The notes beneath the pieces were generated by a model that saw only the letters and a list, made by a program, of their open reading frames with translations, did not search any database and had not been told where the DNA came from. A program made the position numbers and the translations under genes. Below, one piece after another: positions 38,346 to 54,567 of a stretch of DNA of 64,000 bases (position 1 is the first letter of the stretch; the number at the start of each line of letters is the position of its first letter). Source of the stretch: Trypanosoma brucei (Eukaryota); NCBI GenBank assembly GCA_000002445.1, contig CP000069.1:1088001-1152000 (forward strand), read 5' to 3'.

Positions 38346-40518
38346 CATAAAATAGGCGTAAACATTTTTTTAAAAATGACTCAGTAATGCATCCACCAAC
38401 ATTTCACTTACTCCTTCTTTTCACCAGATGCCTGCTGCTGTTGTTGCTCACCCTGACCTTCTGTGCTGCTGCTACCAGAGCTACCGCTGTTCGCTGCTGC
38501 CGCCTGTTGGTACTCCGTGCGACCACATTCCATCACTGCCTTTTGCAGTTTGTCAGTAGAAGCCGACAGTTCATCCTTCGTCACGTTTGGATTCTCCATC
38601 ACCTTGCGAAGTTCAGCCAAAAGGGTACGCACATTCTCCTTCTCAGCGTCCGTCACGTACTTCCATTCCGTCAGTTGTCGCTCAGCAGTGTTAGCCTGAG
38701 TCTCAGCATTGTTACGCACTTCCACAAGCTCCCGCTTCACACGGTCAGCTTCAGCGTGCATCTCAGAGTCGCGGATCATGTTCTCGATCTGCTCCTTCGT
38801 CAACCCACCATGAGCAGTAATGGTGATGTTCTGTGTTTTCCCAGTTGCCTTGTCCTTCGCAGTTACGTGGCAAATACCATTAGCATCAATGTCAAATGTC
38901 ACCTCAATTTGTGGTACACCGCGTGGTGCAGGAGGAATTCCAACGAGGTCAAACTGACCCATCATTTGGTTGTCAGATGCCATTTCTCGTTCCCCTTGGA
39001 ACACTTTGATTCCGACCTGTGTTTGGTTGTCCGCAGCAGTTGAGAAGGTTTGACTCTTCTTCGTCGGGATTGTTGTGTTCTTGGGAATCATACGTGTGAA
39101 GACACCACCAAGTGTTTCGATTCCAAGTGATAGTGGTGTAACGTCAAGCAATACAAGACCCTTCACATCACCACGGAGAACACCACCAAGTGTTGCAGCA
39201 CCCAGTGCAACGGCCTCGTCAGGGTTCACACCACGGAACGGTTCGCGACCGAAGAACTGCTTCACAGCCTCCACAACCTTTGGCATACGCGTCATACCAC
39301 CAACAAGCACAACCTCAGAGATTTCCTTCAGGTCAACAGCAGCGTCCTTGATGCATTGCTTGCACGGTCCAAGTGAACGTTGTACGAGCTTATCAGCAAG
39401 GGACTCAAACTTGCTGCGGCTCACCATCATCTGCACGTGCTGCGCTCCGTCCTGGTTAGCTGTGATAAACGGAAGGTTTACCTCCGTCTCCATCGTCGTC
39501 GAAAGTTCACACTTCGCCTTTTCTGCAGCCTCACGAATACGCTGCAGTGCCATCCGCTCCTTGCTCAAGTCAATTCCAGATGTCTTGCGGAATTCCTCCA
39601 GAATGTGATCAGAGAGGCAGAGATCAAAGTCTTCTCCACCAAGGTGAGTGTCGCCATTCGTTGCCTTTACCTCAAAAACACCTCCGGCAATTTCAAGTAC
39701 GGAGATATCAAATGTTCCACCACCAAGATCATACACGGCAATTAAGCTGTCCTTCGTTTTGTCCAAGCCATATGCCAGTGCAGCAGCAGTCGGTTCATTC
39801 ACAACACGGATCACATTCAGTCCAGCAATCGTACCGGCATCCTTCGTTGCCTGACGTTGCGCGTCATTGAAGTACGCGGGGCACGTCACCACAGCGTTAG
39901 ATACTTTGCGTCCCAGGAAGTTTTCTGCCGTTTCCTTCATCTTCTCAAGTACGAATGCACCAACTTGTGAAGGTGAGTATTGCTTCCCATTCCCATCTTG
40001 CACCCACGCATCACCATTATTGCTCCGAATAATCTTGTAGGGCACATTCTTGATGTCGTGTTGGATGTGCTCATCATCGAAGCGACGACCAATCAGCCGT
40101 TTCACCGCGAAGAATGTCGACTGTGGGTTCGTAATCGCCTGACGTTTCGCTGCAAGGCCAACAAGTTTTTCCTGTCCTTTGAACGCAACCACAGACGGTG
40201 TCGTCCTGAAACCCTCTGTATTCTCAAGTACGCGTGGCCGGTCACCTTCCATTACTGCAACACAACTGTATGTCGTACCCAAATCAATACCAATCACGTC
40301 ACCAGTTACCTTCGATGACTGCCACCGCGCAAACGGGGCAGACGCCAGGCACATGGGTGCGCATACACGACGGGCCAACATTTTATTACTTCACAAACTA
40401 CTTCTTACCTTAGAAATACTTTACCACTTACCAACTTATCTATTAAACCGATAAGAAGAAGCATTGAGTGGGAGAATGTTTTTTTTTTTAAACAGCTTTA
40501 GAACTTTGTTCAATAGTT
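38346..40518 (-). repeat. mtHSP70 repeat unit, copy 3 (dispersed copy carrying both the copy-1-type 3' flank and the copy-2-type extended 5' flank)
   Basis: Its 3' flank at 38346-38407 matches 24831-24892 of copy 1. Its 5' flank at 40382-40518 matches 29426-29562 of copy 2. It is separated from the tandem pair by four unrelated genes. Confidence 0.85.
38408..40381 (-). CDS. Mitochondrial-type HSP70 (DnaK-like), copy 3 of 3
   Basis: A 657-aa protein identical to copies 1 and 2. At the three polymorphic sites it carries G (38585), G (38870) and A (40370). It therefore matches copy 1 at two sites and copy 2 at one. Confidence 0.95.
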
Positions 40519-40948: not shown

Positions 40949-42319
40949 TCACAACGCTCGAATAAGGAAGATTTTCTTCTCGTTTACCACTTCAAAATAT
41001 GGGGAAATTCCTTCATGGTAGAGCTGCAGCACGCGGCTCCAATACGACTCACCTCCTATGATAGTTGAGAGAACAGACTGTGCACGTAGCTGCCTTTCTT
41101 CCACCTGCGCAAATTGAGAGATCGCCGTATAGCAGTAATTAAAAACAGCCTGCAAGTGGGCCGCCTTTTCCAACCGATAAGTGAGATTATGTCCCTCGTT
41201 ACTGGGATCCAAGACGCTTATTTGCGCATTGGGGTGCACCTTACTCGTTGGTTCTCTCAAGCCACGTGCTGTTACAGAGTGAGAAAACATGTCAAAATTT
41301 GCACAGAACCCATACGTGAGGAAAAAATCCATCAGCAACCTGCCAGTGTCAGGTGTGTCGTTGGCATCGTATGAATTAAAAATAGCTACAAGCATTGTGG
41401 CAACTGCTTCGCTATTCAGTGCTTCCGGATTCGTGCCTGTGTCATCGAGGATTTTGTTTTGTCTAAGTAAAGCGTCGAGGAGGAGAAACGTCTGCCGACA
41501 TGCCTCGTTCGACGCGACAGCGGAGGCGAAAAGCCTTGATGCCACTTCCACCCTGCATGCCTCAGCTCCATATCGTACGTTCATTCGCAGACCGGACCGA
41601 CTGTCAGTAAGTAGTAGACACATCACATTCCGATAGTCATAGCAAAATTCCAACTGGAACCCTGCGTTATTGGTGATACTCTGCAGGTGCATCTGCGTGT
41701 ACTGTTTTGCATCGGGTGTCACAACCGTGTTTTTGGCATAAAAATGAAGTGTCATGTCCTTCAGCGGGGGTAACCCAGCAGCCGTTGTTGACATCGGATG
41801 CAGCTCCGCGGTCGGCCATAGCTCCCGCAACATAGCCGTGACTGAGGTGACGACAGCCTCGTAACAGTAGAGTTCCAATGCTGTTGGACGTAAGAATGAT
41901 GAAAATAGCCTCACTTCCTCAGTTACTGTATCTGGCACACTCATGCCGATACACCATGGGGGATGCGGCCGGCAGGTGCGGGCCAGTGTCTTTAATAATG
42001 GTCTGGTCGCAACCAGCACCACATTTGTTGTGTCTATGGCCTGCTCATGAGACACTGTACAGGCTGGGGTGGAACGCAAGGTGGAGCGGCGCGAGCTCGT
42101 TGAGCTGGAGGGGCGGCGCATTTTGCGGAACATATTCGGCGTTCCAAGACTTCCAATATTAGCCTGAGACCCGCCAAACGACACCGGAGTAAACTGTTCC
42201 CTACGGTCACTTGGTTGAGCATAACCTGAAGGTACTGGTGACGATATTGAAGCCTGCCTCCCGTGTTGCTGGGAGCCGCTGTTGGCAACTCTCTCAGCAT
42301 CGTCTACAGGACCAAACAT
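40949..42319 (-). CDS. Nucleotidyltransferase-fold protein (Cid1/TUTase/non-canonical poly(A) polymerase-like) with an apparently degenerate catalytic motif; putative pseudo-enzyme
   Basis: MSTTAAGLPPLKDMTLHF aligns with the pol-beta NTase signature FGSxxTGLxLPxSDIDL, but the second Asp of DxD is replaced (DMT). A PAP/OAS1 substrate-binding-like segment LLMDFFLTYGFCANFDMFSHSV matches the PAP-associated consensus (compare LLLGFFEYYGxxFDYxxxVISI). The first 55 codons of the ORF, from 42484, are hydrophobic and low-complexity, so the Met at 42317-42319 (MFGPVDDAERV) is preferred. Confidence 0.45.
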   Translation of the reverse strand: MFGPVDDAERVANSGSQQHGRQASISSPVPSGYAQPSDRREQFTPVSFGGSQANIGSLGTPNMFRKMRRPSSSTSSRRSTLRSTPACTVSHEQAIDTTNVVLVATRPLLKTLARTCRPHPPWCIGMSVPDTVTEEVRLFSSFLRPTALELYCYEAVVTSVTAMLRELWPTAELHPMSTTAAGLPPLKDMTLHFYAKNTVVTPDAKQYTQMHLQSITNNAGFQLEFCYDYRNVMCLLLTDSRSGLRMNVRYGAEACRVEVASRLFASAVASNEACRQTFLLLDALLRQNKILDDTGTNPEALNSEAVATMLVAIFNSYDANDTPDTGRLLMDFFLTYGFCANFDMFSHSVTARGLREPTSKVHPNAQISVLDPSNEGHNLTYRLEKAAHLQAVFNYCYTAISQFAQVEERQLRAQSVLSTIIGGESYWSRVLQLYHEGISPYFEVVNEKKIFLIRAL

Positions 42320-43401
42320 CCGCACAAGTGCAACTCCGGGTGCTTCCAGTATCCGATGTATATTTCCAAACAGCGCGAGAGAAATGCAGATATAGAAAGC
42401 GGAGAAGAAAAGGCAAGCATTCAGACAGATCACCAATTGTACGTGTTTATGTTGCGAAAAAGAAAAGAAGACGGAATTAACCATTGTGATGTTAAACAGA
42501 GGAAGTGAACAAATTTATTATCTGCTGTTGCTTAATATTGATATTTGCAATCATAATAAAAGGGGTTTCCACTTCATTAGAGTATCGCATCACGATGTGC
42601 TTCACCTACTTCGCGTCCCCTTCATTTTGTGTACTCCCAACGTGCGCCAACCATCACCAAACCCCTTCATGAGGAAACTGCAGTGGAGGCTCACTAATGT
42701 CCAAAGTGTATCCTACAATAAACGAAACAAACAAACAAACATAATAGTAGGAGTAAACGCCTCTTCAGTATTTAGTTTGTACACCAACATAATGAGACAA
42801 GGAATTGCGTGCCGGATACCTCCTCCCACAACCATTCCATTCACTCAATCACACATAAATGAACACAAATACTTTTGCATCCGATTAATACTCTACTCTA
42901 CTACAACTCTTTATTGCCTCACCAACTGTGATGTTGAATCGATGGCGACGAAAGTTGATGACGGCTAAACCGTGTTAACGACAAAATCATCAGCTTCATT
43001 GAAATAACCTTCAGTGAAATGAGAGATGAATGGTGAAGAAAAGAAGCACATATACATTTTCTGTAGCGGCACGCAAATATGTTAACCGGAAGGACGCTCA
43101 TCTCTGCAAGACAACGAAAAAAGAAATGAAAAGTAACATACAAAAATAGACAGCACATTAACTCGCTTCTTCCTTCATTGTCCCAATAACTAATTGACAG
43201 AAAGCAACCTGTTAATGCAAACACCAAGGGTATGGAAAAAAAAAATTGTATAAATCATACATGTACATAACCAACAAGACGAACTGCTGCACGAAAACTC
43301 CGAAGAGAAAATACAGGGGAGACAACAACGCAAGGACTTCATTTTTACTCTCTCTTTTTTTTGTCTAACTAAAAAAATAAAACATAAAACATCTGCTATC
43401 A

Positions 43402-45945
43402 CTATAGCGTACATCCCTCCGGTTGCAGTGGCGACCGACGGATCACCGGCGCTGAACCCAAAACGCTAATGATGTCACGAAGTCGTGCGGCATGTATGTC
43501 TGCGAACGTGCTTTTGCTCATTGACTTTTCGGACAGTTCCCTCAACACTGGCCTCGGTGTAAGCGGCTCGACTTCCATGATCGCTTTGTTAACATTGTCA
43601 TATGTAATTACATTCACTCCGCCTTCCTGGTCCACACGCTCCGAGTACAATGTGAGGCGCTCAATTAAGTTGCAGTAGAATAAAATGGCGGATGCACATT
43701 CCTGATCGAAGAAGGTGGACATGAACTTCCCACTCAAACTAATTAGACCTCCCACATCGTGAGTTGTGTCGACACCCAAAGCCTCCTTTAAAAGGGCTAC
43801 ATCCTTCTCTGTTTTCAATTGTAAAACAGGTGCAATGCAGTCAGCGACAGCAGTGCGACGCAGCCGTGACCGTTTCTGCGCCGTAGCAAGTTCCTTCAAT
43901 TCCGTTCGCACATTTTCAATGATAGCTATTACATCACACGCCAGTCGACTCGGGTATATGCCATCCAAAATTCCCGTCAACAATTTAAGTGAAGGTCGGC
44001 ACCGCTCTCTGCTACGCGCAATGTAATCCATGTTGATGGCGAGGTGCTCCGGTTGCGTGAACTTTTCCAACCCAGGCCTTGTTTCAATAACAGAATTAAG
44101 GTAGTGCAAGTAGATTTTTGGGACGTCGATTGTGGGAAGGAGAACGTCCGGGTGCTCAACCAGTGTGCTGGAGAAGAAGTCGTGAACAATTGAAAGCACT
44201 GTCATCTGATCCAACTCAACGTAGGGCACGACGCCGGCTGCGCACAGATGTACCGGATTGTTTTTATTCTGACACCGACCTATCATGGGGGGATGAGGTG
44301 TTTCTACTTTCATGGGAACCATTGCCCGTCTGTCCACTTCATTCGAAAGGGAGTGGATCTGTTCAACAAGGAAGTCTACCTGAAGCACCGTTTCAGTCAT
44401 ACCTGGAACCACAGATGTTATAGCCTCGTCACCTTCAAGCGGGAGAGCTCGGACAGATTTGACGTATTCCTTCAACGCAGGGACCTTTTCATGGACTTCA
44501 TCCCACTTGGGCCGAGGAGTCATTACATCGCGCTGAATGTCTGCATTAAGAAGTTGCGCATTTTCCTCCTTTATGGCTTTAAACTTCCTTCCCATAACAT
44601 CCACCTGCATTCCCCTAACAGCGGCAGCCCGACGGTTGTGACGACCAGCGGCTTGGGCTGCTTGCAGTTCAGCCATCAGTTGTTCCTTCACGATGTTGTG
44701 ATCGGTAATGGAGATAAACTGGCTGTATTTTTCCTTGAACTCCTCAAGCTCACTTTGAGCTTCACCCGCCATGATTTTGAACTCACTCAGTTCGTCAACC
44801 TTGCTCACCAGGTCCTGATACTCCTTCTCTACCTTTTTCGCTCGCTTGTCACTTTCCCGCAAGGCGGCAATCAGCACAAGCACCTTCTCAAGGTGATCCT
44901 TGTTGGTTTCTTCTAATTTCTGTATCGTTGCATTGGCGCGAAGAAGATTCCTTTCCATTTTCTTGAAACCTTTCAATGAGCGGCGACCTGGTTGAGGCAC
45001 CACAATAGGTGCCGTATCTCCTTCCTCTGTTACCTCGTCGTCACCGTCATCTTCGAGTTCATCACGTACCTCTTTTAGTTCTGCAGTAAGCCGAGTGATG
45101 GTTGAGTTCAATTCTTGCACCTCCATCCCTCGCTGAGCAACCACACGCTCCTGTCTCTGTCGCTCATTCATAGACTCAATTAGCATTGCGGCCTGTTCTT
45201 GAATAACACCATCGTAAGCCGACATAATATCGTTCAAGATTTGGCTATACGCGGGGAACGCATCAATGAGTACAAAAAGTGCCTCACGAAAAGGTCGAAG
45301 GCGACTTTGGGCTGTGCAAACGCCTCCTTCATCAACGGCCACACTTACTTCTTTCTGTAGGTACTGCGCCAGCGTTGTAGCAAGAGGCGGTGGATCTCGT
45401 CCAGAAGACATAAAGGAGTTCATTGTTTGTGCCATGCCGCCGCCAGTCTCTAGAAAAGATGTAGTTGCTGCCCCCCACTTAGTGTCCGTAGACTTTGACA
45501 GCATACTTTTAAGGGATTTGAAACTTTCAACGCTCCCTTGAACGGGTTTCCGAGGGCTGCAGCGATTACTCGAACTTTCACCAGGGAGCGGCTGAACAAT
45601 TTTTCTCCCCGTCCTTCCCCTGACGGGTTCTTTTATCGGGATGCCCTTGCGGCTGCCGGTGTTACCCGATGCGGCCGCTGCGTCGTTGGTACCAGTGTCT
45701 GCTCCTTCTGCCGTCTTTTGGCGATTTAAAGCACTTTTAGTGTCCTTAAGCCCACCTTGCAGCACTCCTAAGTTGTTTGGATTTGCGGGCCAGGCTGCGG
45801 TTCCTCGTTTGGATTGAAGAAGCGGGTTATATGGTAAGGTGGGCAAATGCATTCCACTGTTCAGTGCCGCTGACGGCATGCAGGGTGATGTCATGTACAA
45901 CACCCCCTTAACTGGCATTGTACCAGAATAAACGGAGGATTCCAT
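43402..45945 (-). CDS. Hypothetical protein with a central coiled-coil region
   Basis: A long minus-strand ORF, 896 aa in total and 847 aa from MESSVYSGTMPVKG at 45943-45945. The central part (ITRLTAELKEVRDELEDDGDD...LLRANATIQKLEETNKDHLEKVLVLIAALRESDKRAKKVEKEYQDLVSKVDELSEFKIMAGEAQSELEEFKEKY) is coiled-coil-like. No enzymatic motif was recognised. Confidence 0.55.
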   Translation of the reverse strand: MESSVYSGTMPVKGVLYMTSPCMPSAALNSGMHLPTLPYNPLLQSKRGTAAWPANPNNLGVLQGGLKDTKSALNRQKTAEGADTGTNDAAAASGNTGSRKGIPIKEPVRGRTGRKIVQPLPGESSSNRCSPRKPVQGSVESFKSLKSMLSKSTDTKWGAATTSFLETGGGMAQTMNSFMSSGRDPPPLATTLAQYLQKEVSVAVDEGGVCTAQSRLRPFREALFVLIDAFPAYSQILNDIMSAYDGVIQEQAAMLIESMNERQRQERVVAQRGMEVQELNSTITRLTAELKEVRDELEDDGDDEVTEEGDTAPIVVPQPGRRSLKGFKKMERNLLRANATIQKLEETNKDHLEKVLVLIAALRESDKRAKKVEKEYQDLVSKVDELSEFKIMAGEAQSELEEFKEKYSQFISITDHNIVKEQLMAELQAAQAAGRHNRRAAAVRGMQVDVMGRKFKAIKEENAQLLNADIQRDVMTPRPKWDEVHEKVPALKEYVKSVRALPLEGDEAITSVVPGMTETVLQVDFLVEQIHSLSNEVDRRAMVPMKVETPHPPMIGRCQNKNNPVHLCAAGVVPYVELDQMTVLSIVHDFFSSTLVEHPDVLLPTIDVPKIYLHYLNSVIETRPGLEKFTQPEHLAINMDYIARSRERCRPSLKLLTGILDGIYPSRLACDVIAIIENVRTELKELATAQKRSRLRRTAVADCIAPVLQLKTEKDVALLKEALGVDTTHDVGGLISLSGKFMSTFFDQECASAILFYCNLIERLTLYSERVDQEGGVNVITYDNVNKAIMEVEPLTPRPVLRELSEKSMSKSTFADIHAARLRDIISVLGSAPVIRRSPLQPEGCTL

Positions 45946-47062
45946 GATGTTAACAGAAACGGCTTTTCCCGCACCTTCCTGTGCAATATTTCCTATGAAG
46001 AAAGTTTCAAGTTTAGCGGGTTGAGTAGGGAAAATAGGGAGGTAGAACGAATAAAGAAGAAAAGGATATTTCTTTCCCCCTTTTTTGCCCAAAAGCCCAG
46101 AGCGGAGTTACCCTCTGGAAGCGCCTTTCTCCTTCTATGCAACACTACATTTGTAATCATAATATGGGAACAAGAAGCAAACGGTATGAAAGCAAAGCGA
46201 GAAGGAAACGGTTAAGCATATGAATAAGAAACGAGACAAAGTAAAACAAGATTAAATAGCAACAAAAAATAATAAAAATAAAACACAGTGGTTACATGAT
46301 CTGCATTTTTTTTTCTGGATGGTATTAAGTGCACGTAATTTAAAAAAAAATAATACGATAGCACTACAGGATCATATTCGAAAAGAAGAAAAGGAAAATA
46401 AGCTCACCACCTTCTCAACGAAAGAAAGGGGTTTTAAATAATAATAATAGTTATTATTATTATTATAGTAACGGCGGGAGAGTTGTTCACGCTTACAAGA
46501 GCATATGTATACAAGAGAGAGGTGAAAAAAGGGAAAATATAAAATATTAAAAAATGGTAAGATAAAAATAAAGATAACGTATGGAGATGATGAGCATAAA
46601 AATGACGCGGACAATCCGAGAAAAAAGAAAAAAATAAGCGATGGGTTGTCATTTTAATATTATTTCAAAAGAAGCGTTATTTGTCATTATGCAACATCAT
46701 ATATACACTCAATGAAGCATATGTTTCGCTTACAGAAAGAATAAATAAAGAACTCACGTCAAAACGAGTCACTAATAAAGAACGGCATAGTTAAACCCTT
46801 TCCCACTAATATTTTTTTTCTTAAAAAAGAAAAAAATACACCCGACCGCTCTTTTTATTTTATTTTATTTTTTGCACCTATGGATCGTTTGTACCGAAGA
46901 AAAAAAAAAGAGGCAAATCCACAGATATTAGATTCTGGACACACCCTTTTGCATGAAACCACGCTGAAACGATTACAATTAGCCATTCGAATGCGTAAGC
47001 ACTTTATGTGCATCTATATGATGGACCTGAAGGTGACAACAAAAGTTAACCAACATTTAACG

Positions 47063-47082
47063 ATCTCTCTCTCTCTCTCTCT
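47063..47082. repeat. (TC)n microsatellite
   Basis: Direct reading: tctctctctctctctctctt. Confidence 0.9.
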
Positions 47083-47235
47083 TTGTGTAAGGAATAACCA
47101 ATAAATAAAACAAACGAGGATTATTACAAAAGTGTGCAATAAAAAGAAAGAAAGAATCAACCGTTTTCACTCAGGTAGCAAAAATAACAACAGCTGTAAC
47201 ACTGACAAAAAAACAGTGATGTCATAAATAGTTAC

Positions 47236-47255
47236 ATATATATATATATATATAG
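47236..47255. repeat. (AT)n microsatellite
   Basis: Direct reading: atatatatatatatatatat. Confidence 0.9.
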
Positions 47256-47394
47256 ACTTCAATGGCTTAATGCCCGTTAAGTTCGAAAAGGAATCTGTTT
47301 TTTTGACATCTTCATACAAATACACCGCACTTCCATAAAGTTTCGTTCATGCACGACACACCACAAAAGAAGCGCAAATGGAGAACTGTTGCCA

Positions 47395-48744
47395 TTACCG
47401 CACCTCAAATATTCCCCATATCAAACCTCCTTCATTCCTATTAATGAGTTTCAATGTTTCCTCGGCATCGTAGGCACCCTCCTCATGTTTGAGCGTAGTG
47501 GCTGAGTTTCCAGTGATCTCTCGAATCCTCAGTTTCCCTTCACGTACTTTTCCAACACGAGTGAAGACAAGCGGCTGATCCATTTGGTCCCTTTCCTCTT
47601 CCAGAATAGTACGGTACATCACACCCAGTTTTGCCTTTAGATGTTTTTCAGGTGTCGTTGCATCGTTTCCTACGTGCCGTAGTTCCTTCTTCGCCTCCTG
47701 CAATGCACTGCAGTTTATAAAGCCACCATAGTTAGAGAAATCCACAGGTTCTAAAGTTTCCTCTTGCATTTGATATTCAAAGGCGCGATAGCACCGCTCA
47801 ATAATGTCGTTGGGATTTAGATCCTGTGCACCAACAAGATACACTTCATGTTGGAATGGAGACAGAATGCTTTCGATGATTGGGCTCACCTTACTATACG
47901 AGTCACGCGGAACCGCCCCCAGCTGATCACCAATCCACTGAAAGGATACTACACGTGTCATCCGGTGGCCTTTAACACACAATGTAATGCGAAATAGGCC
48001 GAATAACCATAAGGTATGCGGTAGGTTGCGCACAAGTTCATACACACCACCATTTCCCGCATTCCTTAAGCACAACTCAACAGGGTTGGCTGCGAATGTC
48101 ACCCAATTCAGTGAACCAAGTCGGTTTCGCACTGCGTTAAGTACCCTCTCCACAGTCCCCGATACTACGCAAGTGGAAAAAGGTACGGAGTGCTCCATCA
48201 TTAATGAATCCGTACTCGTCATTCCATCATCACCATCACCATACTCCATATCAACGCTTCCTCTACTACCTCGACTAACTGACGAAAGTTCCACAGAACC
48301 GAGATGTGGTGGGAAACTAAAATAAAAGCTTCCTTCCTGTTCCTGAATCCGTTGCTGGAACTCCTTTATGATCTGTGCTATGGAAAAGTTCCCCAAATCA
48401 GAGACGAATACTGTCCGCATGCGCTCGACAAGATGATGAAGTGAAAGAGAAGATTTCTCCGTCACTGTTATACCCGCTGATCCCTTTAATTTATCGCGAA
48501 AGCTATTCATATATGTGAGGCACCGCCCACGCTTCACATTCCCACACTCGGGTCCGATGAACATCACTGAGATAAACTTGTTGCGCTTGAATGTCCCCTT
48601 TCCAATGGGAAAACGTGCATAAAGAAGTTGTACTTTCCTCTCATCCAATAATTCAAACCCCTTTTCAATATCTTCACCACTTCTAGCCACACATACGACA
48701 TTCGTCTCTATTCTACCACCGTTGCTATTGTTTTCCAGTGGCAT
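47395..48744 (-). CDS. ADF-H (coactosin/twinfilin-like actin-binding) domain protein with a long C-terminal extension
   Basis: The N-terminal about 110 aa from MPLENNSNGG... contain LLYARFPIGKGTFKRNKFISVMFIGPECGNVKRGRCLTYMNSFRDKL. This resembles the ADF-H core of coactosin (FAFVRFTTGDAMSKRSKFALITWIGENVSGLQRAKTGTDKTLVKE). The remaining about 340 aa have no recognised motif. An alternative upstream start lies at 48804. Confidence 0.45.
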   Translation of the reverse strand: MPLENNSNGGRIETNVVCVARSGEDIEKGFELLDERKVQLLYARFPIGKGTFKRNKFISVMFIGPECGNVKRGRCLTYMNSFRDKLKGSAGITVTEKSSLSLHHLVERMRTVFVSDLGNFSIAQIIKEFQQRIQEQEGSFYFSFPPHLGSVELSSVSRGSRGSVDMEYGDGDDGMTSTDSLMMEHSVPFSTCVVSGTVERVLNAVRNRLGSLNWVTFAANPVELCLRNAGNGGVYELVRNLPHTLWLFGLFRITLCVKGHRMTRVVSFQWIGDQLGAVPRDSYSKVSPIIESILSPFQHEVYLVGAQDLNPNDIIERCYRAFEYQMQEETLEPVDFSNYGGFINCSALQEAKKELRHVGNDATTPEKHLKAKLGVMYRTILEEERDQMDQPLVFTRVGKVREGKLRIREITGNSATTLKHEEGAYDAEETLKLINRNEGGLIWGIFEVR

Positions 48745-50092
48745 ATCGGGCCCAATACCACGCAAGGCAATGAATTTGCTCCTTACCGCGAAAAGAACAG
48801 GCAAATATTAACGATAATAATAACAATATCTTAACAATGGTTTTACTAATACGAACTTAGACTATGTGATACGACGGGAAAGAGGGGGGATTTTCTATTG
48901 CCTTGATCTTAAATCAAATCACTATCGTCAATAGTATCGGATAATGAAGAAGTTTTTAAATATATATATGTATGTATATATATCCTAATTTGCGTAAATG
49001 ACTTCCGCTACTCCTTTTTTGAAGTTACTTTGTCATTACAAACTAATTTTATTAAAACGTTGTGAAAAAAAATATAAAGAAGAAAAAAAAGAAGAAAACA
49101 CAAAAGAAAATAAGTAAATAATAAATAAATCGATAAATAAATAAAGATATGGAAAGAAACTAGAGCTCGCCCCCCACACGCACACACACGAAGGACAGCA
49201 CCAGAGCGAAAAAAAAAACACTCAACACATTCGGAATGAACAGGAGTAACTTGAATGAGGCGAAAGGACGTGGGAAGGTTATTTCATCTTATTGATTCCT
49301 CTTTATTTTTGTTTTGTTCTTGCTAACGAAAAAAAAAAAGAGTTCCTTCCCTCACTCTCTCTCTCTATTTATCCTTTTTTCTTCTTCGCCTCACCCCACA
49401 CATTATTCTCATCTGTTGTTTCTCCCTTTCCTTTCATTTGATTTCTTTGAAATTGTTTGGTCGTCTCTACATCGTTCCCTTCCCTTCATTCTTTTGACGC
49501 CTGATTCTTTTTTTTTCTTTTTTCATTCTTTCCTTCTTTATTTTTTGTTCATTTTTTTTGTTTTTTGTCCGCTCATCCCAATTTTTCCCCTCATTTCTCT
49601 CCTCTTGTGCATTTTATTGTTCTGTTTCATTTCTGTTTCACACTCCCTTCTCACCTTATTTCTCTGTTCATTCTGCTTATTATTATTATTTTATTTTTCC
49701 CTTCTTTATTCGTTTCAACCCTCCACCTTTTCTTTTCCAGTTCCTCCTCACATCGTCATCGTTTCGATCTTATGTTTCGGAAGGAACTCATTTGCCGGTA
49801 ATAAATGATAGTGACTATAAATGAGAATAACAATAATAATAATAATAGTAGTAGGGGTGACCACGATGGTTGCAGAATAGGAGGAAGGAGATAAGAGGGA
49901 AGGAAATTGTCGTGAAGAATAAAGAAAATAAAAGGAAAAGAAAGTCACACGGAGTAGTCAAAAAAAAATCAATAGGTCTCCCGTCAGTTTATTTTTGCAT
50001 ATAAGAAAAGGGGAAAAGGGGGAGGAAGTAACTGCCGTGTTGAAGTTATATCACAACTTTTCCGGATGATTCCCTTTCTTTTTCTCTTTTCT

Positions 50093-50122
50093 TTTTGCTT
50101 TCTCTCTCTCTCTATATATATA
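50093..50122. repeat. (CT)n(AT)n compound microsatellite
   Basis: Direct reading: tttctctctctctctatatatatat. Confidence 0.8.
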
Positions 50123-51326
50123 TCCTTTTTTTTCTCTTTTTTGGTACTTCACGACTACTACCTTTCCATTTCCACTCACTCTTCTACCGTTAAATCAATT
50201 CTGTTTTTCCCCACTTTCAACCTCACATATGGTAATCATAGAAATAATTCGAAAAGGAAATAAATGGGGACAAAAGGCACACCCCCCAAAAAAAAAAATC
50301 TTTCTGCCCACATGCAAAAGAACTCACGGACAAAAAGTATAATGAAGTAATAAATGTACTGCCATATACATATATGTATATATTCTTTTGTTCCATTCTA
50401 ATAGAACATGCTGCAGTCAGAGAAAGGGCCAGGCACTTCAAACGGAAAGAAATGGTTGGGTTAGAATGAAACAAAAAAGAAGAAAAAAAGAAAGACCCGG
50501 AACAAAATGAAAAGGGAGGGCTACACACACGAAAGAACCGTTGACAAAATTAAAAAAAAAGGAAAACGACTGGGAGATAGTTGAGGCTAAACCAACCGCC
50601 AACCAGTGATGAAACAGGAATTGAATGGATTACAAACACCAAAAAAGGGGGGAAATGTCACCCTTCCCGCTCCCCTTCAATACAGCAATCCTCTACAGGG
50701 AGATATGGGAATATAATATTTTGCCTTAAGGGAACTTGATGGAAGCAGAAAATCACAACAAAAGGGACGCTAAATGGCATTTCCAAACAGCGGGAAACCA
50801 CCGGACAGAAACGGCCATTCAAAATTGATATCAACTAACTTCACTATCAGAGCCCCATTGCTGTTGCCTCTCCAGTAACTTGAGAACACTCTCAATATAA
50901 CATCCACATTCTCATTTCTATTTCTTCCGTTTCCTCCTCTTCCTCTTACTCACTTTGCCACATCCACGCTAAAAAAGAAATAATTATCGCAAAGAATCAA
51001 CTTTGTATAATCCGCGCGCTGCTGAATGGTCCCCGCCCACCTGATACGACTCGCGAGTGGAGTGGAGTGGAAGGTGTGAAAGATGTCGAAATTAGAGGGA
51101 AGAGTTCAACCAAATAAACAAATTCACAAGGGAGCAAAAACAGTTATTATAACACATAATTGTGAAGCAATCCAATCATCTCTTGTTTGTAGAGACGGCA
51201 GTAAACCTCCTTTCCCCCTTCTTCTTCTCTTCCTTCTCCTCCTCCGCGCCAATTTTTCAATCAAAATTCCCTCATTTCCTTTTCCCTGTCGTTTTCCTAC
51301 ATTTTCAACGGCGATACCAGTCCTCT

Positions 51327-51887
51327 CTAATTGTTCTTCTTTGTCAACTGGTCCACTTTTGTGCGGAGGGCACCCAAATGCTCCTCAGCCATAGCCATGA
51401 TATCTGCAGTTGCATTATCAATAACCTCCTTGTTCTTCTCATACACCACAGGAGCAGTGAAGAGTAGTGTAACGATAAGACCAAGAACAGCCATATCAGA
51501 AAAGTAGTTCCCAACAATGGCCAACACAACAGTAAGTGCAGCAATTGCACCAGACTGCTTCCTGTCCCTCCATGTGACCAAATCGTAGATCTTTTGTAAC
51601 ACCAAAACGGCGTAGGGTGCGAAGCAATCGGCGAAACGGTCCACCATCATTTGAATATCATCATTGGTATAAGTTCCCCATTTCATGAATCCCATAAGCG
51701 GCATAGCAGCAAAAAGGACTTGCAAGAGGCGGCAGAGAAAAGTTACCACGGTATATTTCATGTACCAAAAGAATAAAATAGTGCTGAGTAGCACAGCAAA
51801 GAGGCTACCAGTTGCTGTGGGGCGGTGCCACGACAAAACCTCCCATGGAGTCAGTCCCTTTAGCTGGTTGCAAAGGAAACAGGACAT
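51327..51887 (-). CDS. Small membrane protein with two hydrophobic hairpins, reticulon/REEP-like (tentative)
   Basis: A 186-aa ORF. Two long hydrophobic blocks (SLFAVLLSTILFFWYMKYTVVTFLCRLLQVLFAAMPLMGF and AIAALTVVLAIVGNYFSDMAVLGLIVTLLFTAPVVY), each about 35 aa, are separated by a hydrophilic loop and followed by a short helical tail. This topology is typical of reticulon-homology domains. No sequence-level family match can be made by eye. Confidence 0.4.
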   Translation of the reverse strand: MSCFLCNQLKGLTPWEVLSWHRPTATGSLFAVLLSTILFFWYMKYTVVTFLCRLLQVLFAAMPLMGFMKWGTYTNDDIQMMVDRFADCFAPYAVLVLQKIYDLVTWRDRKQSGAIAALTVVLAIVGNYFSDMAVLGLIVTLLFTAPVVYEKNKEVIDNATADIMAMAEEHLGALRTKVDQLTKKNN

Positions 51888-52253
51888 GATTTCCTTTTCT
51901 GTGTTTTTTTTTTCCTTTTCCTTCTTTAATCTGCTGTTCAGACGCTCTTGTTCTTCACCTTTAAAAGGAAACCTTTTTATTTTTTTAAATAAAGCTCCGT
52001 ATTCCGCGTGCTTACCTTTAATTCTTTTTCCTTTTTCTTTGGATGCTTGAGAACCTAAACCCCAGTATGTTGCGTGGTTGAGCGTGTTTAGAACAGTTTA
52101 ACGAAAGGAGAGAAAACGCAAGCGGTTCAATGGAAACGAAACACGAGATGACAAGTATTACCGAAGCGAAGAAAAAAAAAAAGCAATGTATTGCATAGTT
52201 GTTTCAAACGCCCCTCTTCGACTCATCCATAACTTAGGAATAAAAAAATAAAT

Positions 52254-52298
52254 TATATATATATATATATATGGAGAGAGAGAGAGAGAGAAAGAAAG
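52254..52298. repeat. (TA)n(GA)n compound microsatellite
   Basis: Direct reading: tatatatatatatatatatggagagagagagagagagaaagaaag. Confidence 0.9.
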
Positions 52299-52488
52299 AT
52301 ACGGAAGGGGTGAATAGATAAAGAAAAAGTTGACATGGTAGGCGAAATGAGCCTACTTACTTCATTTGAAGTGCATTGAAGCACATCAGCATTCACAACT
52401 ATGATTCACTGGACATGAGTTCAAAAACATGCTGTAACAGTTCTCTGTCAAAGCTTTTTTGTTCCGTTTGTCGGTAACCCGCTAATTA

Positions 52489-52518
52489 CACACACACGTA
52501 TATATATATATATATATA
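52489..52518. repeat. (CA)n(TA)n compound microsatellite
   Basis: Direct reading: cacacacacgtatatatatatatatatata. Confidence 0.9.
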
Positions 52519-52865
52519 CAAAAATATATAAGCAACAAATATTCAGTTGTATATAGATACAAACAATAACCACTTGTAAAAAAATATATATATGTATATA
52601 GCAATGTCCGCATGCGCGCTAATCAATTCTGCGGTCCTCAGAAGGATGTCGATAACACAGACGATTTGCGCTGCCTTTCTTCCTTTTTTTTTCTTTAATG
52701 CGTGTGTTCGCGAGGACTAAAAGGGAGAAAGGATAACGGAAACTCATGCAACAGTACGTTAGTGTCTCATCTAATCTCAAATTTGGGAGATTCGATGAAT
52801 AACAACCTGAACAAATATATTCTCACTATTATTTATTTTTTTTCCATGTATTTACACTAATATTT

Positions 52866-53735
52866 TCACGTGGATGGATATGGACAAACACGGTACGCCT
52901 TGTGAGCTAATGTCAGTGACCAGTCATCATATTCAATACCCTTAACACACATCTGTTCCATTATGGCCTCTACGCCTTCACTAATAAGTTGAGCAGTTAG
53001 GCCTGGTTTCGGTCCATCTGTATAAAGTATTAACATTATATGATATTGTGTCACATCTGCACGCCGCTGTGTATATTCCTCCCAGTGTTCCATGGCTGCA
53101 AAACAACTGGTCAAATGATGCTCGCCATAACCCGTCACACGGTGATAATTCCTAAGAGATAATCGAAGGGGTTCACTCACGTCGATAGCATCAAAACAAT
53201 GACTGCGTAAAGCCTTAGAAAGTAAATTGTCAATATCGTTCCGTGTCTCCACTGAGGAAAAGAGATAATAAAACATCTGTCTCTGTTCATGATATCTTTC
53301 ATCCTTAGATTTATACCGGTAATAAGAATGGGTATAATCGCCCTCATCATCCTTTTGTTTTGATGACGATTCATGAGAGGAACCATCAAATTCACTGTTA
53401 GAGCGAGGGCCCGTCTTTACAAGTTTCTCACAGCACGACTCATACGCCCAGCGGATGCGACGAAACCCCTCTTCCGTTCCTCCAACATCCGGATGTTCCG
53501 TTTGGCATTTGCTTCGATACGCCGCTTTCACTGTTGTCATGTCACTATTGTTGCTAATACCCAATGCATCAAATGGACATGACTTCGATTTGGTGTTGTC
53601 ATCTGCCGTGAAACCACAGCTAATGTACCGCATTGATGAGGACACGAATGCAATAAAAGCAAAGCATTTCCATGTTTTAACCGCAGCACGTCGGACTTTC
53701 AACATGAAGGTGGTAGAACTACAAAACAATGGCAT
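52866..53735 (-). CDS. J-domain (DnaJ/HSP40-like) protein
   Basis: J domain with HPD: CPFDALGISNNSDMTTVKAAYRSKCQTEHPDVGGTEEGFRRIRWAYESC. The N-terminus is hydrophobic and basic (MPLFCSSTTFMLKVRRAAVKTWKCFAFIAFV), possibly a targeting or anchor sequence. No other domains were recognised. Confidence 0.7.
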   Translation of the reverse strand: MPLFCSSTTFMLKVRRAAVKTWKCFAFIAFVSSSMRYISCGFTADDNTKSKSCPFDALGISNNSDMTTVKAAYRSKCQTEHPDVGGTEEGFRRIRWAYESCCEKLVKTGPRSNSEFDGSSHESSSKQKDDEGDYTHSYYRYKSKDERYHEQRQMFYYLFSSVETRNDIDNLLSKALRSHCFDAIDVSEPLRLSLRNYHRVTGYGEHHLTSCFAAMEHWEEYTQRRADVTQYHIMLILYTDGPKPGLTAQLISEGVEAIMEQMCVKGIEYDDWSLTLAHKAYRVCPYPST

Positions 53736-54567
53736 ACATTCGCTTTAATATTAATAGAGGGGTTGGAACTAATCAACAACACTTCCTGAAGGACGTAATG
53801 TAAGATATGAAGGAAGAAATATGTGAGTAAAGAAAGAAGGAAAGAAACTCAAAACAGAATAAGGCAAAATAAAGCAAAATAAGAGAAACAGGGTTCGAGT
53901 AACAAAAACTGAAATAAAAATGAGTTAGAGGCGAGACTTTGTTGCTCTCGCACCTCTTTGGAAGGTCATTTACCATTTTTACTCAGGTCGAAGTGTGGCC
54001 ACCGACACATTTATGCTCAGGCTCACACATCAGAATCTCCATATTTTTATTTTGGTTACCATCCACCATAACAAGGAAGCAACAACTGTCGCGTAAGTTC
54101 ACTCGAATATTCGCATAATTATACATCCTCGCTTTCGTTCTTAGGATTGCATTCCTATCGAAGATAGGATACACACGCATTTATGTGTGCGAATAAAACT
54201 AGTACAAACATTTAAAAAAAACCAAGATAATAATAATAATAATAATCATCATCATCACCCAAACCATCCCTCTCCCTTCCCCACCCACTCTCTTTTCCCC
54301 TGGGTTTAAATGATTTAGCCTTCTTAGCCGAAACCTGGAGAGCGCAACACCATATAAATGACGACAGTGTAGAAACTAAATAATAAAAAGTAAAATCACA
54401 AGAAGCATGCAACAGCATGTCTCATCCACCGACGGTAGCATTGGAGTTATGGGAGCTACCTCTCAAGAAAAGAACAGCGAAATAATAATAATAATGATAA
54501 AGAAATAAATAAATACATACAATGAAGGGAAAATAAGGTCAAATCTATTGACACAAACCATAACGAC

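What the first reader, a model, noticed from the sequence alone, without database searches (positions are those of the whole stretch)
40949..42319. Nucleotidyltransferase-fold (TUTase/ncPAP-like) protein with a broken catalytic DxD: candidate pseudo-enzyme
The segment MSTTAAGLPPLKDMTLHF aligns with the canonical pol-beta NTase signature (FGSxxTGLxLPxSDIDL), but DxD has become DMT. A PAP-associated-like segment (LLMDFFLTYGFCANFDMFSHSV) follows at the expected distance. Kinetoplastids rely heavily on TUTases and non-canonical PAPs for mitochondrial RNA editing and stability. Catalytically dead NTase paralogues in that system act as regulatory partners, so a new member with a degenerate active site is worth a look.
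Basis: partly seen in the sequence, partly recalled or inferred. Interest (0 to 1): 0.55.

Follow-up and report, generated by a model that had tools for sequence, protein, structure and literature searches.

The report
Dead Trf4-like poly(A) polymerase paralogue
This Trypanosoma brucei gene (Tb927.6.3810) encodes a well-conserved protein that keeps the full shape of a Trf4/Cid1-type RNA-tailing enzyme but has lost every residue needed for catalysis, so it most likely works as a non-enzymatic binding partner in RNA metabolism; nobody has studied it.

Summary

The mitochondrial RNA-editing context is not supported:
- The N-termini are P/Q/H-rich or acidic, not presequence-like.
- The protein is absent from the published mitochondrial importome lists that contain KPAP1.
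- The editing TUTases are more distant structurally than Trf4.
- The nearest sequence relatives are diplonemid Trf4/Cid14-like proteins that already carry Asn at the third carboxylate and often have PAM2 motifs or a PSP1 domain.

Best reading: an uncharacterised, kinetoplastid-wide pseudo-poly(A) polymerase that acts as a scaffold, probably in cytoplasmic or nuclear mRNA metabolism. It is a new member of a known kind and of moderate interest.

The parts
40949..42319 (-). Complete CDS of Tb927.6.3810 (456 aa, 50.7 kDa; stop codon at 40949-40951)
   Evidence: ORF list. 100% identical to T. brucei TREU927 XP_845499.1 / UniProt Q585X9. Calculated mass equals the value listed for Tb927.6.3810. Lies directly after the third mtHSP70 copy, and the T. 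congolense orthologue has the gene id consecutive with an mtHSP70 copy.
42320..42484 (-). GenBank-annotated 55-codon N-terminal extension, probably 5' UTR with the trans-splice acceptor region
   Evidence: Not matched by any orthologue N-terminus. Contains polypyrimidine tracts followed by AG dinucleotides just upstream of ATG 42319. Inference, not shown experimentally.
42026..42319 (-). Disordered N-terminal region (aa 1-98), low complexity, S/R-rich near its end
   Evidence: pLDDT about 40 for residues 1-92. Poorly conserved apart from one short motif. N-termini across orthologues are P/Q/H/Y-rich or acidic, not presequence-like.
42137..42154 (-). Conserved short linear motif GSLGTP (aa 56-61) inside the disordered region
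   Evidence: [GS]SLGTP is found in 26 of 28 orthologues, plus NSCGTP in one more, usually followed by an aromatic residue 6-8 positions after the Leu. Its function is unknown; a candidate partner-docking or proline-directed phosphorylation site (inference).
41945..42007 (-). Invariant pre-domain segment TRPLLKxLAxxCxPxPPWC[VI]G (aa 105-125)
   Evidence: T105, R106, P107, L109, K110, L112, P118, P120, P121, W122 and G125 are invariant in 28 sequences. Modelled as a helix plus turn with pLDDT above 90. The P-W pair is shared with diplonemid and canonical Trf4-like relatives.
41510..41938 (-). N-lobe: pol-beta-type 'catalytic' palm domain (aa 128-270), degenerate
   Evidence: Aligns to Trf4 residues 19-172 of chain 3nyb_A and to canonical Trf4-like profiles. 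The secondary-structure order matches the canonical model.
41741..41794 (-). Remnant of the hG[GS]...DxD motif (aa 176-193: MSTTAAGLPPLKDMTLHF)
   Evidence: Column counts:
- GS becomes G/S followed by T/I/A/L.
- D188 is D16/E8/G4.
- T190 is T22/V4/A/C.
- H192 is H25/Q2/N1.
The canonical tier has invariant G70, S71, D82 and D84. The favoured register puts T190 at Asp1 and H192 at Asp2.
41573..41587 (-). Strand that should carry the third catalytic carboxylate (aa 245-249, RMNVR)
   Evidence: N247 aligns with the invariant Asp of canonical VDISF and with the invariant Asn of the diplonemid clade. The column is C/T/A/N/V/F/S in kinetoplastids. R249 (26 of 28) replaces the invariant Ser of the canonical tier.
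40952..41509 (-). C-lobe: central / PAP-associated domain (aa 271-456)
41405..41470 (-). Former nucleotide-binding helix and loop (aa 284-305, LLRQNK...LNSEA)
   Evidence: The canonical K(x3)Q[RK]...GG[LI]SSY motif is replaced. The first Lys becomes D/L/V/E, and Ser-Tyr becomes the invariant E304-A305. Q287-N288 are invariant.
41273..41344 (-). PAP_assoc-like core segment (aa 326-349, GRLLMDFFLTYGFCANFDMFSHSV)
   Evidence: Aligns with LGxLLxDFFxLYG...F[ND]Y of canonical Trf4-like proteins. Sub-threshold Pfam PF03828 hits in 6 of 28 members and in the prokinetoplastid orthologue.
41030..41086 (-). C-terminal signature RAQSxLSTIIGGExYWxRV (aa 412-430)
   Evidence: Nearly invariant in kinetoplastids. 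It is homologous to GRTPLSxIIxHxxLWxR of the diplonemid clade but diverges in canonical Trf4-like proteins. It is a shared feature linking the two clades.

Best explanation
Tb927.6.3810 encodes a catalytically inert paralogue of the Trf4/Cid14-type non-canonical poly(A) polymerases, that is, a stand-alone pseudo-nucleotidyltransferase.

Shown here:
- It keeps the complete two-lobe fold.
- At the homologous positions it has no metal-binding carboxylates (T190, H192, N247).
- It has lost the Ser of the GS motif, the triphosphate-binding Lys and the base-stacking Ser-Tyr.
- The same degenerate state holds in every kinetoplastid orthologue examined. The protein is nevertheless under strong constraint (57 invariant columns in 17 sequences spanning bodonids to Trypanosoma) and is expressed as protein.

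Inferred:
- It descends from a Trf4-like enzyme through a lineage shared with diplonemids. In that lineage the third Asp had already become Asn.
- It works non-catalytically. The folded domain, whose former active-site cleft is re-lined with conserved H192, R245, R249, Q287-N288 and E304, would bind an RNA 3' end or a protein partner. The disordered N-terminus would recruit a partner through its conserved SLGTP motif.
- Its most likely arena is cytoplasmic or nuclear mRNA 3'-end or poly(A) metabolism, not the mitochondrion.
For: Fold:
- Foldseek E 7e-12 to 1e-9 with target-normalised TM mostly 0.63-0.71 for catalytic-module-sized targets.
- Model pLDDT about 97 over residues 100-456.

Homology:
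- Profile against PDB hits Trf4 at E 6.7e-5.
- hhalign against canonical Trf4-like proteins gives E 7e-27, and against the diplonemid clade E 5e-35.

Loss of catalytic and NTP-binding residues: column counts and three-tier alignments, set against the invariant G70, S71, D82, D84, D134 and S136 of canonical relatives.

Constraint and breadth:
- 33 homologues at E <= 1e-55 from Trypanosoma, Leptomonas, Lotmaria, Angomonas, Trypanoplasma and free-living kinetoplastid transcriptomes.
- An orthologue in the prokinetoplastid Apiculatamorpha.
- Kinetoplastid sequences group together in 50 of 50 crude NJ bootstraps. That tree was otherwise unusable: the distances were saturated and included undefined values.

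Expression: 3 peptides, 11.8% coverage.

Non-mitochondrial hints:
- N-termini are not presequence-like.
- Absent from the uncut importome lists that contain KPAP1.

mRNA and PABP link of the nearest relatives:
- LNPxAxxFxP PAM2 cores in 8 diplonemid relatives, with one (P0076) just above the Pfam PAM2 gathering cut-off (20.6 against 20 bits) and two weaker hits.
- A PSP1 domain at 8e-17 in P0064.
Against: - No biochemical test exists.
- The register of the DxD remnant is ambiguous between alignment methods.
- Localisation is inferred only from negative evidence. Absence from a proteomic list can reflect low abundance, and I could not retrieve TrypTag or hyperLOPIT assignments.
- Kinetoplastid members lack a recognisable PAM2 motif. 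The PABP link therefore rests on diplonemid relatives only.
- The protein was not significantly enriched in the one PABP-related dataset where it was seen.
Confidence: 0.72

Rival explanations
1. One reading: a mitochondrial, catalytically dead partner of the kinetoplastid TUTases or poly(A) polymerases (RET1, RET2, MEAT1, KPAP1/2). It would regulate RNA editing, gRNA processing or mitochondrial mRNA tailing.
Against: - The T. brucei N-terminus has 3 acidic residues in its first 10, and orthologue N-termini are P/Q/H/Y-rich.
- The gene is absent from the uncut mitochondrial importome tables that list KPAP1.
- It is not a chain in any solved structure: phmmer against all PDB sequences gave no hit better than E 0.018. 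This covers the kinetoplastid mitochondrial complexes I know to have been solved (my knowledge, not checked here).
- The nearest relatives carry PAM2 or PSP1 modules.
Confidence: 0.07
2. A nuclear pseudo-Trf4: a non-catalytic subunit or competitor within a TRAMP-like or exosome-cofactor system, binding MTR4, zinc-knuckle proteins or the active ncPAP1/NPAPL (Tb927.8.1090).
For: Trf4 is the top hit by sequence and structure. KEGG-style annotation of the prokinetoplastid orthologue is PAPD5_7/TRF4 and of the Diplonema relative is 'cid14'. T. brucei has an incompletely defined TRAMP-like complex (review PMC8311971). The S/R-rich basic stretch (RRPSSSTSSRRSTLRS) could act as a nuclear signal (inference).
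Against: The published ncPAP1 purification summarised in the review lists MTR4, NOP47, RRM1 and PUF10, and not this protein. The diplonemid relatives point to PABP and cytoplasmic mRNA instead. No localisation data were retrieved.
Confidence: 0.15
3. It is still an enzyme. The cleft would have been rebuilt with a different set of residues (for example D188/E, H192, E304, R249) and would catalyse nucleotidyl transfer or another phosphoryl chemistry.
For: The residues lining the former active site are not drifting but strongly conserved: H192 in 25 of 28, R249 in 26 of 28, E304, Q287 and N288 invariant. That pattern indicates a functional pocket.
Against: All three metal ligands, the GS Ser, the triphosphate Lys and the base-stacking Tyr are lost together. 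D188 is Gly in four orthologues, including Leptomonas and Lotmaria. To my knowledge (not checked here) no pol-beta-type NTase is known to work without at least two carboxylates. A conserved pocket is equally expected for a ligand- or RNA-binding pseudoenzyme.
Confidence: 0.05

Closest known systems
Yeast Trf4 / S. pombe Cid14 / human PAPD5 (TENT4), the TRAMP-type non-canonical poly(A) polymerases, and the active T. brucei orthologue ncPAP1/NPAPL (Tb927.8.1090)
   Different: None of the three catalytic carboxylates, no GS Ser, no triphosphate Lys and no Ser-Tyr nucleotide clamp. It has its own invariant N-terminal helix (TRPLLKALA) and C-terminal STIIGGExYW signature. Pfam models do not reach threshold.
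Diplonemid Trf4/Cid14-like clade (e.g. Diplonema papillatum KAJ9463487.1 'Poly(A) RNA polymerase cid14'; Sulcionema, Lacrimia, Artemidia and Namystynia transcripts)
   Same: Nearest non-kinetoplastid relatives (hmmsearch E 1e-28 to 1e-8; hhalign E 5e-35). They share the C-terminal [RK][TS]xLSxII...W.R motif, and Asn replaces the third Asp (T. brucei itself still has N247).
   Different: Diplonemid proteins keep YGS, the second Asp and GGLSSY. They are expanded into many paralogues, and several carry PAM2 motifs or a PSP1 domain. Kinetoplastids have usually one copy, fully degenerate, with an SLGTP motif instead of PAM2.
Known inactive NTase-fold modules: N-terminal Lin28-interacting module of TUT4/TUT7, the NF45/NF90 DZF domains, Utp22/NOL6, MiD49/51
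   Different: Not orthologous to any of them. It is a stand-alone protein rather than a domain of an active enzyme (TUT4/7), and it is closer to Trf4 than to the DZF, Utp22 or MiD families.
Kinetoplastid mitochondrial TUTases and PAPs (RET1, RET2, MEAT1, KPAP1)
   Different: Those are active enzymes with intact triads, UTP- or ATP-selective pockets and mitochondrial import. This protein has none of these and is structurally closer to Trf4, GLD-2 and TUT1.

Membership tests
Cid1/Trf4-type non-canonical NTases (ncPAP/TUTase; Pfam PF22600 or PF01909 plus PF03828) | Two-lobe fold: pol-beta palm plus central/PAP-associated domain | tested here: met
Cid1/Trf4-type non-canonical NTases | Pfam domain hits at the curated gathering score | tested here: not met
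   No NTase-related hit for the T. brucei protein even at E <= 10. Among 28 orthologues only sub-threshold PAP_assoc (6 members, best E 0.0022) and MTPAP-like_central (3 members).
Cid1/Trf4-type non-canonical NTases | Significant sequence homology by profile methods | tested here: met
   hmmsearch of the family profile against PDB hits Trf4 at E 6.7e-5. hhalign probability 99.7%, E 7e-27 against canonical Trf4-like proteins.
Cid1/Trf4-type non-canonical NTases (as active enzymes) | hG[GS] helix-turn motif | tested here: not met
   M-S-T in T. brucei. The family has G19/S7/A2 followed by T/I/A/L/V, so the Ser is lost.
Cid1/Trf4-type non-canonical NTases (as active enzymes) | DxD/E on strand 2 plus a third Asp/Glu on strand 5 (metal-binding triad) | tested here: not met
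   T190/H192/N247 in the favoured register, or D188/T190/N247 in the alternative. The third position is never acidic in 28 sequences.
Cid1/Trf4-type non-canonical NTases (as active enzymes) | NTP-binding Lys on the central-domain helix and the GG[LI]SSY nucleotide clamp | tested here: not met
   Lys is replaced by D/L/V/E, and SSY by [GS]-E-A with E304 and A305 invariant.
Cid1/Trf4-type non-canonical NTases (as active enzymes) | Template-independent nucleotidyl transfer to RNA 3' ends | not testable with these tools
   Needs recombinant protein and a primer-extension assay.
Kinetoplastid mitochondrial TUTase/PAP system (RET1, RET2, MEAT1, KPAP1 and partners) | Mitochondrial import | tested here: not met
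   The N-terminus is acidic or low-complexity. The gene is absent from the uncut importome tables that include KPAP1. This is negative evidence only, not decisive.
Kinetoplastid mitochondrial TUTase/PAP system | Closest similarity to RET1, RET2, MEAT1 or KPAP rather than to nuclear or cytoplasmic ncPAPs | tested here: not met
PAM2-containing PABP-binding proteins | PAM2 motif (LNPxAxEFxP) | tested here: not met
   No PAM2 hit in any of 28 kinetoplastid members at E <= 1 and none by regex. It is present only in the diplonemid relatives.
TRAMP complex subunit (Trf4-like) | Association with Mtr4 and an Air-type zinc-knuckle protein | not testable with these tools
   The review of the T. brucei ncPAP1 purification does not list this protein. 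No direct data exist.

The most novel reading that the evidence does not exclude
Diplonemids and kinetoplastids share a lineage of Trf4-derived pseudo-poly(A) polymerases that stopped tailing RNA and became readers or adaptors of mRNA 3' ends. The diplonemid members dock on PABP through PAM2. The single kinetoplastid descendant (Tb927.6.3810) would use a rebuilt, metal-free basic pocket (H192, R245, R249) to hold a poly(A) or other RNA 3' end, and its SLGTP motif to recruit an effector. That would make it an unrecognised post-transcriptional regulator in organisms that control genes almost entirely after transcription.
Probability: 0.15. Interest if true: 0.65.

Novelty: new member of a known kind. 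Interest (0 to 1): 0.4.

Why it matters
Trypanosomatids regulate gene expression almost entirely after transcription. A protein that is conserved across the whole class, expressed, and built on an RNA 3'-end-modifying fold is therefore a plausible missing component of mRNA tail or decay control. It also gives a clean, datable example of stepwise pseudoenzyme evolution: intact triad in canonical Trf4-like proteins, Asp3 to Asn in diplonemid relatives, and full loss in kinetoplastids. Practically, the result redirects experiments away from mitochondrial editing complexes and towards cytoplasmic or nuclear mRNP partners. It also corrects the GenBank start codon. It is not a surprise in kind, because inactive NTase-fold proteins are well known and UniProt already labels this protein 'PAP-associated domain-containing'.

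Tried and rejected
- Pfam on the T. brucei protein found nothing relevant. On all 28 orthologues it found only sub-threshold hits.
- Foldseek afdb50 was not available.
- Neighbour-joining tree of 64 sequences: the first attempt timed out. In the second the distances were saturated or undefined and the topology was uninformative except for kinetoplastid monophyly. I therefore do not claim a resolved sister relationship from a tree. The link to diplonemid proteins rests on scores and shared motifs.
- Literature: no paper mentions Tb927.6.3810 or the orthologue or accession ids in its main text. Searches for reviews of inactive NTases in trypanosomes gave nothing specific.
- Supplement searches in the TrypTag, EIF4E1-4EIP and cell-cycle phosphoproteome papers found no entry; some files were cut when stored. 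ZC3H28 paper: no supplements held. In the hyperLOPIT paper the gene appears only in the orthogroup table.
- Rfam and tandem-repeat scans of the window found nothing.
- Genomic neighbours are functionally unrelated, as expected for a trypanosome polycistron (AAA ATPase, RBR E3 ligase, cofilin-domain protein, DnaJ).
- A PAM2-like reading of the SLGTP motif was considered and not adopted, because the spacing to the aromatic residue varies and there is no HMM support.
- An MKT1-type HNPY motif was considered. N.PYG occurs in bodonid and monoxenous orthologues but not in Trypanosoma, so it is not a family feature.
Full report
**Where the window comes from and what the gene is**

The ORF at 40949-42484 on the minus strand is 100% identical to a T. 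brucei brucei TREU927 chromosome 6 protein. Its accessions are XP_845499.1 and UniProt Q585X9. NCBI calls it 'hypothetical protein, conserved' and UniRef calls it 'PAP-associated domain-containing protein'. The window holds three mitochondrial HSP70 copies at 24893-26866, 27452-29425 and 38408-40381. The target is the next gene after the third copy. An orthogroup table lists Tb927.6.3810 with orthologues TcIL3000.A.H_000473700, TvY486_0603290 and TcCLB.511743.30. The T. congolense orthologue has the gene id consecutive with one of that species' mtHSP70 copies. A proteomics supplement lists Tb927.6.3810 as 'hypothetical protein, conserved', 50.719 kDa, detected with 3 peptides.

The 165 nt between the two ATGs carry polypyrimidine tracts followed by AG, as expected for a trans-splice acceptor (inference).

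**Checking the observation**

Both quoted peptides are present, at residues 176-193 and 328-349. Pfam finds nothing relevant in the T. brucei protein, even at E <= 10. Across 28 orthologues it gives only sub-threshold PAP_assoc hits (6 members) and MTPAP-like_central hits (3 members). More sensitive methods are unambiguous:
- Single-sequence phmmer against all PDB chains finds yeast Trf4 (3nyb_A) at E 0.018. The alignment runs straight through the GS...DxD region.
- A profile of 28 orthologues raises that hit to E 6.7e-5 over 154 residues and adds Arabidopsis URT1.
- An AlphaFold2 model built on the family alignment has pLDDT of about 97 for residues 100-456 and a disordered N-terminus.
- Foldseek matches URT1, CutA, TUT1, GLD-2, Trf4, Cid1, TUT7 and mtPAP at E 7e-12 to 1e-9 over about 340 columns.

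The fold assignment covers both the palm and the central/PAP-associated lobe, and it is not a chance resemblance.

**The active site**

I searched 1.8 billion representative proteins with a trimmed family profile. The hits fall into three tiers.

*Tier 1, the kinetoplastid family (E < 1e-58).* It includes Trypanosoma, Leptomonas, Lotmaria, Angomonas, Trypanoplasma (Cryptobia) borreli, free-living kinetoplastid transcripts and the prokinetoplastid Apiculatamorpha spiralis.

*Tier 2, a large diplonemid set (E 1e-28 to 1e-8).* All 12 members that carry a source name are diplonemids: Diplonema, Sulcionema, Lacrimia, Artemidia and Namystynia.

*Tier 3, canonical Trf4-like proteins.*

The motifs differ between the tiers as follows.

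| Feature | Tier 3, canonical | Tier 2, diplonemid | Tier 1, kinetoplastid |
|---|---|---|---|
| GS motif | FGS invariant | YGS invariant | Ser replaced by T/I/A/L/V |
| First Asp | Invariant (SDxD) | Variable: A/S/E/D | Favoured register: T (22 of 28) |
| Second Asp | Invariant | Invariant | Favoured register: H (25 of 28) |
| Third Asp | Invariant, in VDISF | Invariant Asn | C/T/A/N/V/F/S; N247 in T. brucei |
| Triphosphate Lys | Invariant K | Mostly R (invariant R in the 23-sequence A5 set) | D/L/V/E |
| Nucleotide clamp | GGxxSY | GGLSSY mostly kept | [GS]-E-A, with E304 and A305 invariant |

The exact register of the DxD remnant differs between methods:
- phmmer and hhalign against canonical proteins put D188 and T190 on the two Asp positions.
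- The profile HMM, MAFFT and hhalign against the diplonemid clade put T190 and H192 there.

Two observations favour the second register. The prokinetoplastid orthologue still reads PGS-LMECVV, which aligns cleanly with PGSDIDCVV. In like-for-like AF2/DSSP models, the canonical strand ends four residues after the second Asp (L83-V88 with D84), and in the T. brucei model strand 190-196 ends four residues after H192.

Whichever register is right, the second and third carboxylates are absent in all 28 sequences. The only candidate first carboxylate, D188, is Gly in four orthologues, including Leptomonas and Lotmaria. I could not inspect the model coordinates, so I cannot exclude a relocated acidic cluster. 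The joint loss of metal ligands, the GS Ser, the Lys and the Tyr makes catalysis very unlikely.

**It is a maintained gene, not decay**

Seventeen sequences spanning bodonids to Trypanosoma share 57 invariant columns over about 355 residues. Several replaced positions in the former cleft are themselves conserved: H192 (25 of 28), R245 (R/K in all), R249 (26 of 28, at the position of the canonical invariant Ser), Q287-N288 and E304-A305 (invariant). This is the signature of a repurposed pocket. The disordered N-terminal 98 residues vary freely apart from one motif: [GS]SLGTP in 26 of 28 sequences, plus NSCGTP in one more.

**Where it acts**

There is no positive localisation evidence.
- The T. 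brucei N-terminus (MFGPVDDAER...) is acidic, and orthologue N-termini are P/Q/H/Y-rich low complexity.
- The gene is absent from the uncut mitochondrial importome tables of Peikert et al. 2017 (PMC5436138). My positive control KPAP1 is present there.
- It is not a chain in any PDB entry. This covers the solved kinetoplastid mitoribosome, assembly-intermediate and editing complexes that I know of (my knowledge, not checked here).
- The nearest relatives are annotated Trf4/PAPD5 or Cid14. Eight of them carry canonical PAM2 cores (LNPxAxxFxP), several in tandem. One of these (P0076) scores just above the Pfam PAM2 gathering cut-off, at 20.6 against 20 bits, and two others give weaker Pfam hits. 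One relative is fused to a PSP1 domain (E 8e-17). These modules belong to cytoplasmic PABP and mRNA biology.

Kinetoplastid members have no PAM2 motif. The protein was not significantly enriched in the PABP-related dataset where it was detected. The PABP connection is therefore a lead, not a finding. A nuclear TRAMP-like role remains possible. The review of T. brucei TRAMP components lists ncPAP1 (Tb927.8.1090), MTR4, NOP47, RRM1 and PUF10, but not this protein.

**Mechanism proposed**

Shown: an intact ncPAP fold, no catalytic or NTP-binding residues, strong constraint, and expression as protein.

Inferred: the protein acts as a non-catalytic scaffold. The folded module would bind an RNA 3' end or a partner protein through the rebuilt basic and polar cleft. 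The N-terminal SLGTP motif would recruit or be regulated by another factor; it could be a docking site or a proline-directed phosphosite. The inferred evolutionary path is Trf4-like enzyme, then Asp3 to Asn in the common ancestor with diplonemids, then complete loss in kinetoplastids. A resolved phylogeny is still needed, because my quick NJ tree was saturated and supports only kinetoplastid monophyly.

**Comparison with known systems and novelty**

In principle the protein works like other dead NTase-fold modules: the TUT4/7 Lin28-interacting module, the NF45/NF90 DZF domains, Utp22/NOL6 and MiD49/51. All of these appear as weaker structural hits. It is orthologous to none of them. It is a homologue of the Trf4/Cid1 family but fails every feature that defines an active member.

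No paper in the searchable library mentions the gene or its orthologues. UniProt already auto-labels it as PAP-associated, so the fold is not a discovery. The kinetoplastid-wide dead active site, the Trf4 rather than mitochondrial TUTase affinity, and the diplonemid PAM2/PSP1 relatives appear to be undescribed. I rate it a new member of a known kind, interest about 0.4. It is worth a tagging and pull-down experiment, but it is not a surprise to specialists.

Noticed in passing
window 42320-42484 (minus strand): The GenBank/RefSeq model (511 aa) starts 55 codons upstream of the likely true start. The extension is hydrophobic, is not shared by any orthologue, and overlaps polypyrimidine tracts plus AG that look like the trans-splice acceptor. 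The 456-aa form matches the 50.719 kDa mass used in a recent proteomics table.
   Followed up: partly
window 24893-26866, 27452-29425, 38408-40381 (all minus strand): Three 657-aa mitochondrial HSP70 ORFs (Tb927.6.3740, 3750 and 3800): two in tandem and a third about 9 kb away, separated by four unrelated genes. This is a known multi-copy locus.
   Followed up: no
proteins P0052, P0056, P0068, P0074, P0076, P0086, P0096 and P0064 (diplonemid relatives, not in the window): Diplonemids hold a large paralogous expansion of Trf4/Cid14-like proteins with an invariant Asn in place of the third catalytic Asp. Many have one or two canonical PAM2 motifs (LNPxAxxFxP) in the N-terminus, and one is fused to a PSP1 domain. 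Their catalytic competence is itself questionable.
   Followed up: partly
orthologues P0009-P0029 and P0033 (N-terminal 60 residues): Bodonid and monoxenous orthologues carry PPPxY-type stretches and an N.PYG motif upstream of SLGTP (one reads HNPYG, reminiscent of the trypanosome MKT1-binding HNPY motif). Trypanosoma orthologues lack both.
   Followed up: no
proteins P0026 and P0038 (Trypanoplasma/Cryptobia borreli): This fish parasite has two family members: a standard 487-aa one and a 673-aa one with a long N-terminal extension and insertions inside the fold. This suggests a lineage-specific duplication.
   Followed up: no
window 54568-55743 (minus strand): A 391-aa ORF has a near-threshold Pfam hit to leucyl/phenylalanyl-tRNA protein transferase (22.3 bits against a 22.7 cut-off, E 9.8e-5). 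To my knowledge that is a mainly bacterial N-end-rule enzyme family.
   Followed up: no
window 43402-46092 and 59974-61632 (minus strand): Two long ORFs (896 aa and 552 aa) next to the target have no Pfam hit at E <= 0.001.
   Followed up: no
window 46001-54000 and 58001-60000: G+C drops to 0.32-0.41 against about 0.46 elsewhere. All long ORFs remain on the minus strand, so these are probably long intergenic or UTR stretches rather than a strand-switch region.
   Followed up: no
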